A stretch of DNA of 64,000 bases, taken from NCBI GenBank assembly GCA_964016885.1, contig OZ024751.1:48484001-48548000 (forward strand), given 5' to 3'. The notes beneath the pieces are model-generated. The model saw only the letters and a program-made list of their open reading frames with translations, was not told the DNA's origin and searched no databases. Within the stretch, counting starts at the first letter, position 1, and each line of letters starts with the position of its first letter. This document shows, piece by piece, positions 15,906 to 56,767 of the stretch. The position numbers were made by a program, and so were the translations under genes. This DNA comes from Eledone cirrhosa (Eukaryota).

Positions 15906-18251
15906 TTTCTTTATTAGCCACAGGGGCACAAAAGAAGGGGACAAATACAAAGGGGGAAGTTTACATACAATAAAAACGTGTAAAATATTATCACAAATGC
16001 AATTTAAAAAATTAGTCGATTTCCCCCAATAGGGGGAGACATTACATATGGGTAACACATACCCCTGAAAAAATGTGCAACCCTCATCTCCAGGAGTACG
16101 AAGAGTTTGTACTCCTTTCCTCTCCTCCTCCTTTTCCTCAACGTACAGGCTGATATAGAGAGAAGGCCCATTCACTCGGGCCTTTCTCGCCACTTTTACT
16201 CACCTTTCATAAAACTTGCTGGGGTACAGCACCTCTCTCTCCATCCTGATTCTTCTTCCAAAGTGGTATTTGAAAAAAAGAATCAGTTGTTGGCCGGAGA
16301 GAAAGGTGGCTGACCTCAGCCCTTTCAACCTTGTCCACCATACAACCTCTTTCGCCATAGCTATCACACAAAGGAAAACCGCCTCTCCTTCGTTTTTGAA
16401 GGAGGGTGGCGGTGTGATCATGACAATGGACTCGGTGGTCAACCGCATTGGTCCCACCCGCGACAATAGTCGTTCTACAGGTCAGTGACGCCCGGGCAGT
16501 GTATGAATGCGTGCGCGACGGTTTCTTCGTCTCGCACGAACCTCGGACAGATCTTTTTTGCAGGATCCCTGCCCGGGTGCCCATGTCTGTAGAGCTTGTC
16601 TCGAACTGGTAGAGCTACTCGGTAGCACTGCCAGACCAGGGACTTTTGGAAGTTGTCCATCGGTCCCGGGCGGAAGTTCCTACCGAACAGACTGGCCAGT
16701 TCATCTTCCTCTACGCCTAGAGTTTCACCGAGCGCGCCGTCGCACTTGCTGCGGATCAACCCTCTATATAATGACGAAGTGGAGTCTCCACTGATCTCCG
16801 GGTCCGCCTGCCAGAGGGCTGTGAGCGCCTGAGCACATTCGATGTGCCAGTCGCCCATTTTCCTCGGTCTTTGCTTGACCCAGGACTGCAGCTCGGTCAG
16901 CGAGACGAGTCGTGGGAAGGCTCGCCTCACGAACGGGGCCCACACCGGTTGTCCGGTGAGGAATACGTAGAGATGCCGTAGCCTGAGCGCGTGTTTGCGC
17001 ATCGTTTAGCCACGGCAGCCCCAGCCCTCCGTTAGAAGGGTGTTGGCAGCAGATAGATCTTCTCACCAAAGGAGCCCGCCTCTTCCAAAGGAATAGGAAG
17101 AGCGCGCGCTCCATTTTGGCGAGCGTTTTGGCTGGACAAGGCACGACGGTCAAGCGGTTGTAGATGGCGGACGCTATAAAAGTGTTCGCCACCTCCGCTA
17201 GACCTTTCAAGGATAGTTTGCACTCGGCCCACTTCTGGGTGAGTGCAAACAACTTGGCCGTCACTTCGTTCCAGTTCTTCTCCACCTGGAGGTCCGGACC
17301 AAACCAGACCCCGAACAGCTTTACTGGTCCTTCCGTCCAGCATCCGACGACGCCATCGGAAGGCATCGGTTTGCCTCTCCACGATCCGAGTTGCAAACCG
17401 ATGGACTTGTCCCGGTTCAGCTTCGCTCCTGTGAAACTTTCGTATTCCTTCAGTAAGGTGCCGACTTCCTCGATTTGCGAGGCGCTCGACACCATTACTG
17501 TCACGTCGTCGGCGTAGGCCGACGCCGCTTTCCGCAGTCCGGTTCCAGAGGGATGCCCTGCAATAGCTCCAACTTCCGCAGTAGTGGCTCGACAGAGAGA
17601 GGGCATCCCTGTCGAATGGATCGCGTAATATGGAACGGCTCCGAGAGGTAGCCGTTCACCTTGACCCTTGAGTAGATGTTGCTGTTGTGCATTGCAGCAA
17701 TCCAGCCCCTGAACACGGGTCCGAAGCCTGCCGCCTCGAGCACCGCATCCAGGTAACGATGGTCAACCCTATCGAAAGCTTTAGACTGAACCAAGTTGAT
17801 CAGGGCCCCACCGAAGCCGGGTTTACACCCTACCCTCTCTATGATGTATCGCATGAGGTGGAGGTTGTCGTGTATGGACCTGGTCGGGATTGCGCATGTC
17901 TGCGCTTCTCCCACCAGGTTCCCGACGACAAGCGCCAGCCTCTTTGCCAACACCTTGGCCAAAATCTGTAACTCCGTGTTTAGCAGAGTTATGGGCCGGA
18001 AGTTGCCTATGTCATCCCCCTTATTCTCGTCCTTCCTGACTAGTGTGACTACGCCCCCGGTCACAGAACTGGGAATTCTCCCGTTCTGTTGCCAGTTGCA
18101 GTAGACCGCTTCCAGGAGACCGGAGAATAAGTCCGGCATTGCTACGTAAAATTCGTAGGGTAGACCGTCGAGACGTGGAGATTTGCGTTTGTCGCATTGG
18201 CTCAGCGCGTCCCCTATCTCAGCGGCTGAAATCGGCTTTTCGCAGAACTTT
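15906..18251 (-). mobile_element. Tx1/L1-clade non-LTR retrotransposon, 5'-truncated, frameshifted ORF2 (RT + CCHC finger)
   Basis: KSPRLDGLPYEFY, NFRPITLLN, SKAFDRVDH, RQGCPLS, YADD (17505-17516), CPRF..ET..HAFIHCP; 3' end GCTAATAAAGAAA next to (CTAT)n. Confidence 0.93.
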
Positions 18252-18261
18252 GATAGATAGA

Positions 18262-19479
18262 TTTCTTTATTAGCCACAAGGGCGCAACAAGAAAGGGGAC
18301 AATACAAAGACATGCCGGGGATTTTACATACAGTCGTGTAAAAAATATAAAAACAAACAATTTCAACAATCGAAATCCCCAATAGGGGGAGGCGCCACAA
18401 ATGGGTTGTTTAATACCCCGTCGATAGAACAACCCTCAACTCAAGGAGCGTGTTGTGCAAGTGCTCCTTTCTTCCTTTTGCTCTCTTCCTCAACCTACAG
18501 GCATATAAACAGAGAAGGCCCAATCACTCGGGCCATTTTCGCTTCATTCACCCACCGTTCAGTAAATTTACTGGGGTGCAGTGCCTCTCTCTCCACCCTG
18601 ATTCTCCTTCTAAAGTGATACTTAAAGAATGGAATCAATTGTTGTCCGGAGAGAAAGGCATCTGTCCTCAGTCCTCTCAACCTCGTCCACCATATAACTT
18701 CTTTCACCATAGCCACCGTACAGAGGAAAACCGCCTCTCTTTCGTTTCTGAAAGAGTCTGGCGGTTTGATCCTTACTATTGACTCGGCAGTCAACTGTAT
18801 TTGTCCCATACGCGACAGCAGTGGTTCTGCATAGTTCCACAGGTCGCTTACGCCCGGGCATTGTACAATTGCGTGCAGAACTGTTTCAATGTCCTGCGCA
18901 CATCTTGGACACGTCCTCTTGGAAGGATCCCTGCCAGGGCGTCCGTGCCTGTAGATCTTGTCACGAACCGGTAGAGCTCCTCGGTAGCACTGCCAGGCCA
19001 GGGACCTCTGGAAGTTGTCCATAGGTCCCGGGCGGAAAGTCCTACCAAACATACTGGTGAGCTCATCGTCTTCGACGCCCAGAGTCTCTCCGAGCACGTC
19101 GTCGCCCTTGTAACGTACAATCCCTCTATAGAATGTCGAAGTGGAGTCTCCACTGATTGCTGCGCCCGCTTGCCAGAGGACTGTGAGCGCCTGAGCGCAT
19201 TCAATGTGCCAGGCGCCCATCGTTTTCGGTCTTTTCTTCACCCAGGACTGCAGCTCCGTTAGCGAGACGAGCTGTGGGAAAGCCTGTCTCACAAACGGTG
19301 CCCACACCGGTTGGGGGTCGGTGAGGAATACCTGGAGATGCCGCAGCCTCAGCGCATGTTTACGCATCATCAGCCACGGCATTCCCAGCCCTCCGTTGGA
19401 AGGGTGCTGACAGCAGACGGATCTCCTCACCAGCGGAGCCTGCTTCTTCCACAGAAACTGGAAGAGCATGCAGAACTTT
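18262..19479 (-). mobile_element. second, diverged Tx1/L1-clade copy (ORF2 C-terminus)
   Basis: ORF 18495-19469 homologous to 16100-17100 (GGLGMP, ALPVRDK, CPRC..ETVLHAIVQCP); same 3' end; flanked by (GATA)n. Confidence 0.92.
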
Positions 19480-19502
19480 GATAGATAGATAGATAGATAG
19501 AT

Positions 19503-19569
<67 letters not shown>

Positions 19570-19595
19570 ATAGAGATAGATAAATAGATAGATAG

Positions 19596-19932
19596 GTTAT
19601 CCGTCGGAACGTTCCTTTCCTCTCCGACGGATAACCTTTTTTCCCGGAACCCCCCCCCCCCCCAGTTGATGGATGCGAATCCGAAATATAGGGATAATTA
19701 AATCTCACCCAAGGTAACTCTATCTCGTGTTATTATTATTATTTTTACGCTCTTTCCTACGTTCGTCTACACACTATACATCTCATTCTACACTCCCTTA
19801 CATCTCTCTCTTCACCACCGGATCCTCTTACCCGGAGAATTACCCATCTGCATTGTTGAGGCTTCCAAAACGACCAAAAGATAATAAATCATATTATTCC
19901 ACAATGCTTCAAGCAAACTTCAATACTCACTT
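19596..19932 (+). mobile_element. non-coding element with 5' hairpin and HHR-like fold, ending in (TA)n
   Basis: Homologous to the reverse complement of 51181-51540; 14-bp hairpin GGTTATCCGTCGGA/TCCGACGGATAACC; HHR-like motif at 19660-19693. Confidence 0.75.
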
Positions 19933-26221: not shown

Positions 26222-28785
26222 ATATAGATCCTGGAGTAGGAGACAAGACAAAACATATAAGATGGGTAATATCTATCCTACGAGGTTACCCTTTAATAAA
26301 AGAGTTTGCATACCACAACAAATAGATGCCGAGACAGAGGCACAGTTCACCATAGCTAGAAATAAGATTAGACAAATAGTAGACCGGTATACTAAGAGAC
26401 AGAGCAGACCAGAGGCCCAACAACTTGGGAGGAAACCTGTAGAAGGCTTGGTTAGCCTCAAGCGGCGCACAAGGGATGGTGAGGTAGTATGTCTACCCAC
26501 GGATAAGTCTGGTAGGATGTCAATAGATAGCATGCCGAACTACATCCAGGCTATGCAACTCCACATCACCAACTCGAGCTAAATTGCACAGCAAACACAT
26601 GATGGGAGAGAGAAAATCCTCAACGCTCACACGATGATGTGGACCGACATCCTAAAGCCAAGCAGACGCACTGCCAACAACTTCCAGGCGTCTAACAATG
26701 GCATACCACCCTTGTATGGGCTTCGCAAAGACCACAAGACAGTCGACGACCCGACAACAGGACCACCAACAAGACCCGTATGCGGAGCAAATATAGCTAG
26801 CAACTACAGGATCTCCTACTTCATCTCAATGGTTATACGCCCCATAATCAAGATGTCCCCAGATGTATGTGACAGTACAGAGGACATCCTCAGCAGAATC
26901 AGTGAGTGCAACAAAAACAGGAACCTATCCAACTGCACAATAGGCAGCATGGATGTGGTATCACTGTACCCATCCATTAACATTGATTTTGCTGTGAAAA
27001 AATGTGTGGAGATGATCATTGAGAGTGAGGTGGAGTTCTGCGACGTCGACACAGACGAACTGGGCCTCCTACTTAGACTTACCTACGACACTGACTACCT
27101 AGACAGCCATGACCTTAGACGTTTCTGCCCTAGTAGACCCATAAGAGGTAGAACCCCCACCATAACCTCAATGGCTAAAAAGACTCCCATGGGAAGGTAG
27201 ATTGGGTGGACCAAAGCTATACGGACCCCCCCAAACAATGATCAGGTAAGAAAAATGGTCGCACATGCAATAGGGGCTAGTATCAAAACTACCCTAAAGG
27301 GCCACATATTCAAGTTCAACGAGAAGATCTACACCCAAAATGAGGGAGCAGCCATTGGCGTCAGCATAGCTGGTGATGTTGCCAACCTTTTCATGGTATG
27401 GTGGGAAAGGAGACTTAAAGATCTCCTTAATGAGAGCTCCATAGACCTCATCATGTACTCTCGTTACGTAGACGATATCAATATAGTTATAAGAACATCC
27501 CCACTAGAGAGCACTAACAAGTTTGATTGAGAACGTAGCACAATAGAAAGCATCTAGCAGAGTAATTCCATACACCAGAGTGTAACTGTAACTATCGACT
27601 ACCCTTCCAAACACCCTAACGATAGACTACCTGTATTAGACACGGAGCTCTGGATTAACACTATAGACGAGAGAGCCCAAATTCTCCACTCACACTATGC
27701 TAAACCCATGGCCTCCAAATACTTGATACTCAAAAACTCAGCAATGTCCAGTAGTGTTAAGTTTAATATTCTGATCGCAGATTTGGTACGAGTGATGAAG
27801 AATGTGTCCCGCATGTGCGACCCAACAGAAATGGAAAGACACATCCAACACTTCATCAACCGCATGCAGTTCTCTGGCTACAACCAAAGAGACAGAGTCA
27901 GAGTATACGAAGGAGCCATGGAGAAGTATAAGACGCTCATAGAACTGGACATGAAAGGAATTTGCCCATTATACAGGAGTAAATCATGGAATAGCTTAGA
28001 TAGGGCTAGACATAAGATAAGGGAAAGCCACCTCATGGTACGACAACCAGAGATACCAGAGTGTCATGTTTGTGGACGCTACCCCAGGAGGGAAATTAGC
28101 TAACCAGTGTAGAAAGGCCCTGAGAAAGACCCACTTAAAGATTAAGGTGGTATAAAAGCCAGGAACCACCATAAAATCCCTGATCAGCAAAACCTACTCT
28201 TTTAAGAAAACCCACTGTACTAATAGGAAATGTATCATATGTAAGGTAAACCCCCGGAAAAACTGTAAAACTAGAAACGTAGTCTATAGCATAAGATGTA
28301 CAGAGGGTACTTGCAGAAACATGACAACAACATACATAGGCGAGACAGCTCGTAGCATAGGTGAAAGGATAGACCAACACTGGGGGGAACTAAAAGGACG
28401 AAAAAACATCAAACAAAACACTCTACACACACGCAAACGCATGCGCAAAGAAGACAAAATAAAATAAACAAATAAATAAATATATAAACAGACTAAATAA
28501 ACATGGCGTAGAAAATACAATGCAACGGGAGGAAACAATAGCACCACTGACGATGTTGCAGGTGTGCAACGAAAGAACTTTGATAAACTATATATATATA
28601 TGTTTGTGTCTATATTGTATCTGTATTATTTTTGACCGTTGGTCAGTCAATGGCAACATTGAGGACCGAATAAATTAGATTACCGATATAAAAGACACAG
28701 AAGCGAAAAGCGAAAACCAACCAAACTGAGTGTTTTCTGTTATTAATTCTGGCAATATTACACAAATATGACCCTCCCCAAGTAT

Positions 28786-28790
<5 letters not shown>
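26222..28790 (+). mobile_element. Penelope-like retroelement (Naiad/Neptune-like), 5'-truncated and decayed: RT, Cys4 linker, GIY-YIG, 3' pseudo-LTR
   Basis: ORF pieces 26181, 26634, 27255 and 27708 are one frame: PTDKSGR, LYGLRKDHK, RPVCG, MDVVSLYPSI, QNEGAAIG, RYVDD, LPVLD, HYAKPM. After a frameshift near 28020: FVDATPGG, CTNRKCIIC..NCKTRNVVYSIRC..YIGETARSIGERIDQH. TA repeats at both ends. Confidence 0.93.
28543..28584 (+). ncRNA. hammerhead ribozyme motif in the PLE pseudo-LTR
   Basis: ACCA-CTGACGA-T-GTTGCA-GGTG-TGCAAC-GAAA-GAAC-TT-TGAT. Confidence 0.8.
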
Positions 28791-47529: not shown

Positions 47530-47737
47530 TATTATAGACGCGACGCTGATCGTTAGATTTGCCGACAGCATTTTTGTGGCATGAAGTTACAGCCTTTTCT
47601 GTCCTGATTTCAAATCCCACAGAGGTTGCCTTCAGGGGTCGATAAAATAAAGTACCAGTAACACATTGGGGTCAATTTGACTGACTTTCCCTTACCTCAT
47701 AATTGTTATCCTTGTACCTAAATAAGAAACTATTATT
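47530..47737 (+). mobile_element. diverged SINE family A
   Basis: GATTTCAAATCCC..GAGGTTGCCTTC..GGGGTCGATAAAATAAAGTACCAG..CCTTGTACC..AGAAAC. Confidence 0.75.
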
Positions 47738-47975
47738 TAAGAGCTTAAGAGCTCTCTTAAATATATATATATATATATATACATAATAAGAACAATCTGT
47801 AAAGAAAAGGAATCAACTCATCAGAGGCTTGATCCATATGTTATAAGAAATAAAAGTTATAATAAACCAATCTGGCATGTAGGTGCAGAGAGCTCTTAAA
47901 TAATAGTTTCTTATTTAGGTACAAGGATAACAATTTTGAGATAGAGGGAAAGTCGGTCAAATTGACCCCAATGTG

Positions 47976-48044
<69 letters not shown>

Positions 48045-48110
48045 GAAGAGAGAAGAAACATTTAGATATAATTAGTAATAAGATGTATCATACCTAAACT
48101 GCTTCTAGAT

Positions 48111-48200
48111 TCCTCGACTACGTAGTTTCGTAGCATAATCAAAAACAATACATCATAGAGATATAGAGCTTTTGTGAGGTCTGCCGACTTATCAAGAGGA
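48111..48200 (-). ncRNA. hammerhead motif, U3-A8 core variant
   Basis: TCCTC-TTGATAA-long stem II-GAAA-CTACGTAG-TC-GAGGA. Confidence 0.8.
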
Positions 48201-48478
48201 TACCTCATTTTACTAGCTTCAAAGAGCACGTCGAGTAATCCTTGAAGTGTAGTGACTGCTGGAAAGCTGCCATTACTCATACTTCTTGCCTCCTTAACCA
48301 CCTCTTCTACGGCCTCGATATAAATACCCCCTCCGCCTCCGTGGTATTTTTTTCAGGGTTATAAGGGGCTTAGCTCTGTTTCTTGACCGTCGTATCACGT
48401 GATTGACTCCCCCTCCGCCTTTTGGGATTCTATCTCACATCTTATAGACGTGCTCTTTGAAGCTAGTAAAATGAGGTA

Positions 48479-48568
48479 TCCTCTTGATAAGTCGGCAGAC
48501 CTCACAAAAGCACTATATCTCTATGATGTATTGTTTTTGATTATGCCACGAAACTACGTAGTCGAGGA
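48479..48568 (+). ncRNA. hammerhead motif, U3-A8 core variant
   Basis: TCCTC-TTGATAA-GTCGGCA..TGCCAC-GAAA-CTACGTAG-TC-GAGGA. Confidence 0.82.
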
Positions 48569-48956
48569 ATCTAGACGCAGTTTAGGTATGATACATCTTA
48601 TTACTAATTATATCTAAATGTTTCTTCTCTCTTCAAAATGTACTTTTGGCTCTGATACTGGTTCAGTCTAATCCATTCGGATTGGTTTGTCCCAGTTATT
48701 CATAGAGCAACATCGGTTAAGGTTGGCACCATTAACTCAAGGATGGATGTGGATATATTCATGTATATGTATGTGTCCGCATGTATCTGTGTGTTTCTCA
48801 ATATATTGTATATATAAATATATATCACGATAAATTAACGGAGGCATAGGCCCTCGCTATTCCCTGTAAATAATGTCCTCAAAGGAGAAGAGATCCTGAG
48901 CTCTTTAAAATAAAATATGTTGAAAAGGTAATACACCAGAGAGAGAGATATACAAT

Positions 48957-49014
<58 letters not shown>

Positions 49015-49091
49015 AGTGGTTACACAACAGTTAGTTCACCATACCGAAAACAAGTGTTTCACCTTAGCGGATCCTCAGCTCGTAATTATTA

Positions 49092-49129
49092 CGAGCTGAG
49101 GATCCGCTAAGGTGAAACACTTGTTTTCG
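49092..49129 (+). ncRNA. minimal hammerhead motif (mirror copy 49045-49082 on the minus strand)
   Basis: CGAG-CTGAGGA-T.CC-GCTAA-GG.T-GAAA-CACTTG-TT-TTCG. Confidence 0.7.
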
Positions 49130-49234
49130 GTATGGTGAACTAACTGTTGTGTAACCACTTCTACCTAACTCGTCCCATGGACTGAGTGCTCTACCACTAC
49201 GGATACTACCTTCCAGTGTTCTATCACTATATAT

Positions 49235-49440
49235 ATAGGAACAAGTTAGACCCCGACGGCTGAGCTAAAGCCGTTTCGACGGCTAATTCTAGTCCAGAAT
49301 TCTAGTCCAGAATTAGCCGTCGAAACGGCTTGAGCTCAGCCGTCGGGGTCTAATTCGTTCCTATTACCCACTCTACTACCCCAAGTATTGAGTACTTTGG
49401 TGCGTTATGGTCCACTTGGTTCCTTACCACATTTCCTTCG

Positions 49441-50234: not shown

Positions 50235-50296
50235 TTTTATTATATATATTTAGAAGGTACTGTGCTGTTTTATCAGTACGTCCTCGTCAGATAAAA
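50235..50296 (-). ncRNA. hammerhead motif of the 20011 family, G12 mutated (likely inactive)
   Basis: TTTTAT-CTGACGA-GGACGTACTG..CAGTACCTTC-TAAA-TATATA-TA-ATAAAA. Confidence 0.7.
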
Positions 50297-50705: not shown

Positions 50706-51138
50706 ATAAAACGAAAAATCAGTGATGCATCTGGACTTAGTTTATTTCGTGTTACAAATGTTTCGCCGGCATGTAGCTCGAGTCATGGTCCTTGTATGGA
50801 TCTGGCTGATTCTGCTTCTGCGGGTTCTTTTAGGCACGGGTGTTTCGTCCGGAGCAAATTTTATCAAATGTGAGCAAATTTTATCAAATGTGATAAAATT
50901 TGCTCCGGACGAACCACGCGTGCCTGAAAGAAGCCACAGAAGTAGAATCATCCAGATCCATACAAGGACCATGACTCGAGCTACATGCCAGCGAAACATT
51001 TGTAACACGAAATAAACTAAGTCCAGATGCATCACTGATTTTTCGTTTTATTTATAATATCTACACTCTACTCTGATGAATATCGAGTGCTAATTTTGGC
51101 ATACCGCCTATGGAAGCACCATAGCTACCACTATACAC

Positions 51139-56002: not shown

Positions 56003-56237
56003 TGTGTGGGTACGTGTGCGTGGGGTTGGGGGGTGTTAGTGATGTTAGTTGCGTGTGGGGTGGGTGGTGTAAGTGGGTGCGTGTGTTCGTGTGTTTGGGG
56101 TCAGGGGGTATTAGTGAGGTTAGTTGCGGGGTGGTGGGATGGATGTGTGGGGGTGAGAGGTGTGGGGGTGAGGGTTAGTGGTATATATATACACAGGGTT
56201 AGTGGTATATATATATATACACAACCTTAATGAGGTA

Positions 56238-56331
56238 TCCTCTTGATAAGTCGGCAGAACCTCATAAAAACTCTATATCTCTATGATGTAGTGTTTTTGC
56301 ATAATATGCCACGAAACTACGTAGTCGGGAA
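56238..56331 (+). ncRNA. third U3-A8 hammerhead motif, in a separate insertion (56229-56400)
   Basis: TCCTC-TTGATAA-GTCGGCA..TGCCAC-GAAA-CTACGTAG-TC-GGGA; body homologous to 48470-48635. Confidence 0.78.
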
Positions 56332-56767
56332 CTACAGAAGCAGCTTAGGTATGATATATCTTATTACTAATTATATCTAATGTTTCTTCTCTCTTCATAA
56401 TGTGTTATATATATATTTATACTGTTTAAGATAATATGAGTGTTAAACTTTCCGATTGTTGAGAGCAGGGGAGATAAAAAGATGAGTAGGGTAATGGGGT
56501 AGGTAGATAGAAGATATATAGAGATAGATAAATAGAGAGAGAGCAGGGGGGAGGGAGAAAGTGTGCGAGTTTCTCTGAGGGTGAGACAGATTGCCTTACC
56601 TTACTGGGTATTGAAGACTACAGTGTATGTATACAATTAGACTGTTTCTATGGGTTTTTCCTTTGCTGATATTATCTGCGTATCACACCTCATGGCAGAG
56701 ACCTATCTACAAACCCAGGAATAAATAAACAACTAGATATGTATGTAAACATGTGATTGGAATCAGT

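What the first reader, a model, noticed from the sequence alone, without database searches (positions are those of the whole stretch)
48044..48635. Natural U3-A8 compensated hammerhead with long stem II, in three copies
Seen: core TTGATAA instead of CTGATGA at 48189-48195 (minus), 48484-48490 and 56243-56249, with stem I TCCTC/GAGGA, palindromic stem III CTACGTAG, a GTC site and a ~60-nt stem II. The first two form a head-to-head inverted repeat (arms 48044-48232 and 48447-48635, 214-nt spacer). The third is a separate, diverged insertion. Established: positions 3 and 8 pair in the active HHR, and U3-A8 is a compensatory variant. Inference: the double change kept across insertions points to selection for cleavage activity.
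Basis: partly seen in the sequence, partly recalled or inferred. Interest (0 to 1): 0.8.

Follow-up and report, generated by a model that had tools for sequence, protein, structure and literature searches.

The report
Penelope-spread retrozyme with U3-A8 hammerhead
These three motifs are copies of an abundant, non-coding 590-base jumping repeat whose predicted self-cutting RNA has an uncommon but already published core pair (U-A instead of C-G), and which was likely pasted into TA repeats by a borrowed Penelope-type enzyme, so it is a variant of a known kind of element rather than a new ribozyme.

Summary
The three TTGATAA cores are real, but they are two insertions, not three, of a roughly 591-nt non-coding tandem repeat with about 5,900 hammerhead copies in this 3-Gb animal genome (5,898 U3-A8, 24 single mismatches, no C3-G8). 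Natural U3-A8 hammerheads are already published (Perreault 2011; about 1,300 in Schistosoma Penelope-like elements, Cervera 2014). The inverted pair is one event: in 57 of 60 inverted insertions one arm ends at site A, the other at site B, mostly running into (TA)n, the Penelope signature. Sharing U3-A8 among copies is descent, not selection; inserted copies decay in the core too. Selection on the templates is still supported: no core column differs among five subfamilies (23% elsewhere), stems show compensated changes, and a second repeat family here holds both U3-A8 (1,842) and C3-G8 (339). Best reading: a non-LTR-retrozyme-like element, cut as a dimer, circularised and copied by a Penelope-type enzyme; cleavage, RNA, circles and the partner enzyme are not shown. 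The scan reported this family and look-alikes before on other DNA.

The parts
48036..48807 (.). One two-armed insertion of the ~591-nt repeat (subfamily B), set in (TA)n
48036..48232 (-). Inverted, 5'-truncated arm ending at site A and running into (TA)n; holds hammerhead copy 1 (core 48189-48195, C17 at 48116)
48230..48807 (+). Nearly full monomer ending at site B; shares 3 bases (48230-48232) with the inverted arm
48472..48477 (+). 5' strand of the predicted 6-bp pairing (loop I side), pseudoknot or alternative helix
48479..48483 (+). Stem I, 5' strand
48484..48490 (+). Core positions 3-9 with U3 (48484) and A8 (48489)
48491..48549 (+). 59-nt stem II: 6-bp base (G10.1-C11.1), internal loop, long distal hairpin
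48499..48504 (+). 3' strand of the predicted 6-bp pairing, in the internal loop of stem II
48550..48563 (+). GAAA, palindromic stem III and GUC; predicted cut after 48563
48564..48568 (+). Stem I, 3' strand
48574..48642 (+). Predicted hairpin followed by site A (insertion end, about 80 nt after the cut site)
48740..48807 (+). Predicted hairpin followed by site B (second insertion end, about 166 nt after site A)
56229..56406 (+). Separate 5'-truncated insertion (subfamily C, 89% to copies 1-2) ending at site A; hammerhead copy 3 with a weakened stem I

Best explanation
The motifs belong to a non-coding ~591-nt tandem repeat, about 5,900 hammerhead copies strong, that likely works as a non-LTR retrozyme: its RNA is predicted to cut itself at a U3-A8 hammerhead, would close into a circle, and is likely copied into (TA)n by a borrowed Penelope-type reverse transcriptase/endonuclease starting at two fixed sites. 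Shown: tandem monomers without a reading frame, one hammerhead per monomer, two fixed 3' ends at (TA)n, random 5' ends, one A-ended plus one B-ended arm in inverted insertions, one haplotype per insertion, core held while subfamilies diverge. Inferred: (1) a tandem array is transcribed; (2) two neighbouring hammerheads pair their palindromic stem III and cut out a monomer, the loop I-loop II pairing standing in for the usual tertiary contact; (3) the monomer is ligated to a circle that folds away from the active shape; (4) both nicked target strands prime on that template at sites A and B and run round it, giving partial tandems of up to about five units joined head to head; (5) selection acts on step 2 in the templates, not on inserted copies.
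For: Unit and arrays: (591-nt period, up to five units; longest frame 86 codons). Ends: of 166 segments 86 end at site A, 73 at site B, 7 elsewhere; TA-rich flank at 80 of 86 and 64 of 73; 57 of 60 inverted pairs are A+B; 2 of 166 5' ends lie within 330-345 around the cut site, 4.5 expected if uniform; 58 of 166 exceed one monomer. One template per insertion: 0.28% within a strand, 0.27% between arms, 1.44% between loci; 203 of 204 locus-by-polymorphism checks concordant. Selection on templates: 0 of 23 core columns differ among five subfamilies vs 110 of 469 other columns; a sixth, older subfamily keeps the same core; compensated pairs in stem I (U-A 27, U-G 4, C-G 3) and in the loop pairing (U-A 20, U-G 10, C-G 3, other 1), 98.6% of cells paired vs 34-55% when slid; 40 of 40 fetched copies with C in loop I have the G partner. 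Second family: 1,842 U3-A8, 339 C3-G8, 78 other of 2,259, C3-G8 copies one clade, support 100/100. Monomers fold stably as circles, z -5.1 and -5.7 against 30 shuffles each. Literature: partial tandems, inverted 5'-truncated copies, tails and (TA)n bias in PLEs (PMC8557442); two RT start sites downstream of the hammerhead cut site (PMC11167929); circles and dimer cleavage in retrozymes (PMC7229834).
Against: No cleavage, transcript or circle was observed. No autonomous partner sharing this sequence was found. The active fold is not the lowest-energy fold in any of six copies tested (gaps 1.1-9.4 kcal/mol without pseudoknot energy), and in a longer stretch the loop pairing forms a nested helix that blocks the core. 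Only one of the six loop pairs varies, and the C-G state is probably one lineage. Shared-allele depletion in the core within one subfamily is not significant (0 of 18 vs 23 of 166, p 0.13), and column counts across subfamilies are not independent. Position 7, normally tolerant, is as invariant (9 variants) as 3 and 8 (11 and 13). The unit is longer than the 150-450 bp published for retrozymes. For a PLE tested in vitro, hammerhead cleavage was not needed for insertion.
Confidence: 0.65

Rival explanations
1. Non-autonomous Penelope-like element copied from uncut linear read-through transcripts of tandem arrays; the hammerhead is conserved for another step (trimming the transcript from host RNA, or as part of the protein-binding fold) and no circle is involved.
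For: All insertion features (two ends, inversion, one haplotype) also fit a homogeneous linear multimer or two RNAs from one source locus. Every array runs through the cut site intact. In vitro a PLE used unprocessed RNA and did not need its hammerhead (PMC11167929). Multicopy head-to-tail non-autonomous elements occur in Chlamys PLEs (PMC8557442).
Against: Copying from a fixed internal 3' site with random 5' truncation should shorten arrays each round, yet at least six successive subfamilies persist and arrays reach 2.9 kb on one arm. Monomers in a locus almost never differ at common polymorphisms (1 of 204).
Confidence: 0.27
2. The hammerhead is a dead relic: U3 and A8 are two chance changes fixed in a founder, and the conserved stretch is kept for another reason such as promoter or protein binding.
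For: No C3-G8 relative with the same stem III was found, so within this family the 3-8 pair shows no covariation; other stretches of the monomer are also invariant (26 and 22 nt runs).
Against: The invariant columns map onto the two separate halves of the core, with compensated stems; U3-A8 is reported active in vitro (cited in PMC3088659); a second family switches both positions together.
Confidence: 0.06
3. Satellite DNA amplified by unequal crossover or an assembly artefact.
For: Head-to-tail repeats with very similar units; one fetched locus (L079) holds a duplicated array.
Against: Short dispersed arrays on many contigs with fixed 3' ends at (TA)n and inverted arms; the sequence and the head-to-tail joint stand in a public DNA run.
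Confidence: 0.02

Closest known systems
U3-A8 hammerheads of Schistosoma mansoni Cercyon PLEs (Cervera and de la Pena 2014, PMC4209133; parts 1-2 of 4 read, supplements not seen)
   Same: U3-A8 core in a Penelope-related repeat, over a thousand copies, opposite-strand pairs 100-700 bp apart, palindromic stem III variants in invertebrates.
   Different: Those are minimal motifs, mostly single, with a 7-8 bp stem II; here stem II is about 60 nt, each motif sits in a 591-nt tandem unit without a reading frame.
Natural U3-A8 hammerheads and pseudoknot-stabilised hammerheads (Perreault et al. 2011, PMC3088659; passages read)
   Same: C3-G8 covarying to U3-A8 in nature; a stem I-stem II pseudoknot predicted in about 40% of examples.
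   Different: Here the pairing is to an internal loop of a long stem II in a repetitive animal type I motif; untested.
Animal non-LTR retrozymes (Cervera and de la Pena 2020, PMC7229834, parts 2-3 of 6 and passages; Li, Clavereau and Pollet 2026, bioRxiv 10.64898/2026.07.22.740005, part 1 of 5 and passages, supplements not seen)
   Same: Non-coding tandem units, one type I hammerhead each, weak palindromic stem III, stable predicted circle, proposed mobilisation by PLEs.
   Different: Unit 591 nt against 150-450 bp; U3-A8 core; long stem II without the usual loop 2; insertion ends show the PLE pattern directly. Circles were shown for those families, not for this one.
Penelope-like elements, e.g. 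PAc of Anolis (Frangieh et al. 2024, PMC11167929, parts 1-2 of 4) and the structures summarised by Craig et al. 2021 (PMC8557442, passages)
   Same: Partial tandems, inverted 5'-truncated copy, two reverse-transcription start sites downstream of the hammerhead, AT-rich or (TA)n targets.
   Different: No RT or GIY-YIG frame; the two sites are about 166 nt apart rather than a 30-40 bp tail.

Membership tests
Type I hammerhead ribozyme | Core U4 G5 A6 N7, A9, G12 A13 A14 A15.1, NUH site, G10.1-C11.1 | tested here: met
Type I hammerhead ribozyme | Watson-Crick pair between positions 3 and 8 | tested here: met
   U-A in 5,898 of 5,922 matches; the usual C3-G8 identity is absent
Type I hammerhead ribozyme | Three helices, stem I open | tested here: met
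   stem III has a 2-nt loop and is predicted stable only as a dimer duplex (-12.9 kcal/mol); stem I is damaged in copy 3
Type I hammerhead ribozyme | [quoted passage not shown] | tested here: inconclusive
   6-bp pairing with one compensated pair, but it can also form as a blocking helix
Type I hammerhead ribozyme | Match to an Rfam hammerhead model | tested here: not met
   E up to 10; a library test rather than a defining trait
Type I hammerhead ribozyme | Self-cleavage after position 17 | not testable with these tools
   needs an in vitro assay
Non-LTR retrozyme | Tandem units, each with a type I hammerhead | tested here: met
Non-LTR retrozyme | No protein-coding frame | tested here: met
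   longest stop-free stretch 86 codons in a natural array
Non-LTR retrozyme | Unit of 150-450 bp (published range, descriptive) | tested here: not met
   591 nt
Non-LTR retrozyme | Highly self-paired monomer | tested here: met
   circular fold z -5.1 and -5.7, about 61% paired
Non-LTR retrozyme | Expressed as linear and circular monomer RNA | not testable with these tools
   no RNA run was listed
Penelope-like element (autonomous) | RT plus GIY-YIG reading frame | tested here: not met
Penelope-like insertion pattern | Partial tandems, inverted 5'-truncated copy, two alternative 3' ends, (TA)n target | tested here: met
Penelope-like insertion pattern | Spliceosomal intron near the hammerhead (some PLEs) | tested here: not met
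   candidate GT and AG signals are not kept in subfamilies E and A; no spliced copy for the one junction searched
Penelope-like insertion pattern | Sequence shared with an autonomous partner | tested here: inconclusive
   none in the fetched loci; the genome was not searched element by element

The most novel reading that the evidence does not exclude
A dimeric Penelope-type enzyme primes both nicked strands of a (TA)n target on one 591-nt RNA circle, at two hairpin-marked sites 166 nt apart, and rolls round it to write two-armed inverted arrays; the circle is released by a dimer-acting U3-A8 hammerhead whose loop I-loop II Watson-Crick pairing doubles as activator and off-switch. This would give a ready substrate for testing how animal retrozymes move and why PLE insertions are inverted.
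Probability: 0.3. Interest if true: 0.55.

Novelty: new variant of a known kind. Interest (0 to 1): 0.3.

Why it matters
As a ribozyme variant it matters little: natural U3-A8 cores are in print, including in Penelope-related repeats. Its value is as material. A large, young family with clean insertion ends ties an animal retrozyme-like repeat to the Penelope copying pattern, a link so far argued from co-occurrence and sequence trees, and offers a short non-coding substrate for testing circle versus linear templates. The second family, with both C3-G8 and U3-A8 lineages, is a natural pair for comparing the two cores in one scaffold.

Tried and rejected
RNA evidence: no RNA holder listed; this says nothing about expression. 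Run X4 (another organism code) gave four contigs at depth about 3 over the ribozyme and is not used. C3-G8 ancestor with the same stem III: none with a 40-70 nt or 8-38 nt stem II (the second returned 10 matches, internal deletions or junctions of this family); 29 of 30 fetched stem III matches with other upstream bases were this family's own truncations or mutants and one matched nothing. Autonomous partner: reading frames next to copies were separated by (TA)n and belong to other elements; a profile of the family found no weak relative beside them. Intron after the hammerhead: rejected as unsupported; the stretch folds as a hairpin. 5' ends at the cut site: no pile-up. Selection on inserted copies: not seen. 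Rfam over the whole window gave microRNA-like matches to microsatellites in the 150 rows shown of 621. Lunse et al. 2017 and Przybilski and Hammann 2007 were not held; only their titles were seen in reference lists, and either may bear on novelty and on how well U3-A8 cleaves. Seven paper searches showed no description of A+B two-armed retrozyme insertions or of this stem II, which does not prove there is none.

Full report
Observation. Copy 2 reads as a type I hammerhead: stem I 48479-48483 with 48564-48568, core 48484-48490, a 59-nt stem II closed by G10.1-C11.1, GAAA, a palindromic stem III and GUC with the cut predicted after 48563. Copy 3 has GGGAA in stem I, one wobble and one mismatch. 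A descriptor scan gave no hit in 594,773 shuffled bases.

What it belongs to. The window lies in a 3.0-Gb animal genome rich in (TA)n. A 24-base pattern across the core matched 5,911 places with U3, 13 of them without A8 (8 G, 4 U, 1 C), and 11 places without U3, all with A8; these are exact-match counts and so lower bounds. Matches recur every 591 bases in short arrays; the unit has no reading frame above 86 codons. At least six subfamilies exist, down to about 72-76% identity to the youngest; copies 1-2 and copy 3 fall in different ones.

Insertion pattern. I mapped segments in loci L001-L111, leaving out nine that overlap another locus (171 segments, five short microsatellite-like matches then dropped). 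The loci were fetched for holding a hammerhead match, and one holds a duplicated array counted twice. Of 166 segments 86 end at site A, about 80 nt after the cut site, and 73 at site B, about 166 nt further; most run into (TA)n (80 of 86, 64 of 73). 5' ends are spread out, with 2 near the cut site against 4.5 expected. In 57 of 60 head-to-head pairs one arm ends at A and the other at B, as in the window. Among young copies in L072-L111, units differ by 0.28% within a strand, 0.27% between arms and 1.44% between loci, and agree at 203 of 204 checks of common polymorphisms. So the inverted repeat is one event from one template sequence. Each site follows a predicted hairpin ending in UGUUUCU. 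Partial tandems, inverted truncated copies, a tail and (TA)n bias are described for Penelope-like elements (PMC8557442, passages), and two internal start sites of reverse transcription downstream of the hammerhead were shown for one of them in vitro, where cleavage was not needed for insertion (PMC11167929).

Is there selection? Two insertions inherit U3-A8 from their templates, and the pair is U-A in 34 of 34 aligned copies. In subfamily E, chosen on sequence 3' of the ribozyme, single-locus changes occur at 6 of 414 core cells and 67 of 3,465 other cells (p 0.7); shared alleles are 0 in 18 core columns and 23 in 166 others (p 0.13); counted per segment the core looked about half as variable. 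Position 7 varies as little as 3 and 8. Evidence for selection on templates comes from elsewhere. Among five subfamilies (48 near-full monomers) 0 of 23 core columns differ in majority state, against 110 of 469 others (naive p 0.002, columns not independent). On 34 copies the proposed structure is 98.6% paired, against 34-55% when slid, with three pairs changed on both sides; 0 of 500 shuffles reach the pairing or covariation score, 92 of 500 reach the count of such pairs, and relatedness inflates these measures. A second, unrelated repeat of about 320 nt in the same genome has 1,842 U3-A8, 339 C3-G8 and 78 other states in 2,259 matches; six C3-G8 copies and one mutant form one clade in a 33-row tree, so this is one coordinated switch of unknown direction. 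No C3-G8 relative of the family in question was found.

The long stem II. Six bases just 5' of stem I are complementary to six bases in the internal loop of stem II. Five pairs never vary; the sixth is U-A, U-G or C-G. A lineage with C (147 matches) has G opposite in 40 of 40 fetched copies, while among 184 other copies C-A occurs once. This fits a pseudoknot holding stems I and II together, a contact reported for about 40% of hammerheads (PMC3088659, passages). It can equally form as a nested helix that blocks the core, and the active fold is not the minimum-energy fold in six of six copies. Stem III is predicted to pair well only between two copies, as for other animal hammerheads that act as dimers (PMC4209133; PMC7229834).

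Mechanism. Most likely (0.65) a non-LTR-retrozyme-like cycle: array transcript, dimer cleavage, circle, two-site priming by a Penelope-type enzyme. The insertion pattern and conservation are shown; transcription, cleavage, circles and the partner are inferred. The main rival (0.27) is the same enzyme on uncut linear multimers. No RNA run was listed and no partner was found beside copies, although the genome holds many PLE frames and canonical hammerhead families.

Comparison and novelty. Natural U3-A8 cores were reported in 2011 and about 1,300 times in Schistosoma PLE repeats, with opposite-strand pairs, in 2014. Retrozymes as non-autonomous PLE derivatives are proposed in PMC7229834 and argued in a 2026 preprint. 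What differs here is the larger unit, the long stem II with its likely pseudoknot, and the clean A+B insertion signature; seven searches showed no paper on these, but two key papers and all supplements were unseen. Earlier scan notes on this family and on look-alikes reach the same reading; I looked at them after my own tests and they are not independent support. Verdict: real, a new variant of a known kind, interest 0.3.

Noticed in passing
L008:1750-2200 (-), L100:6100-6750, L152-L181: Second TA-targeting tandem repeat of about 320 nt with a short-stem type I hammerhead: 1,842 U3-A8 and 339 C3-G8 of 2,259 matches; C3-G8 copies form one clade.
   Followed up: partly
L072:3155-3275: A third U3-A8 motif (TTGAAAA, short stem II, stem III CCGG, UA site) in a small inverted pair.
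   Followed up: no
window 20019 (+), 63671 (+), 32327 (-), about 50290 (-): Canonical C3-G8 hammerhead motifs of other families; the one near 50290 appears to have lost its GAAA.
   Followed up: no
window 26227-28790 (+): Decayed Penelope-like element with RT-like and GIY-YIG-like stretches broken by stops; a fuller relative with inverted and direct terminal repeats lies in L254. Pfam gave no match for the two window pieces tested.
   Followed up: partly
window 49015-49230: 145-nt perfect fold-back with CTGAGGA and GAAA but no standard stem order; it follows a GIY-YIG-like stretch in L014. It may belong to the rearranged hammerheads in earlier scan notes; not tested.
   Followed up: no
window 47660-47977, 49240-49359, 50706-51051: Further inverted-repeat insertions beside (TA)n tracts, likely other elements with the same insertion habit.
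   Followed up: no
window about 16480-19700 (-): Pieces of a non-LTR retrotransposon; two of them match Pfam RVT_1.
   Followed up: no
L146 (two units), L142, L148, L150: Copies with internal deletions in stem II; in L146 both tandem units carry the same deletion, which removes the distal hairpin but leaves core and loop pairing.
   Followed up: no
L079: Two nearly identical two-armed insertions 2,554 bases apart: a segmental or assembly duplication.
   Followed up: no
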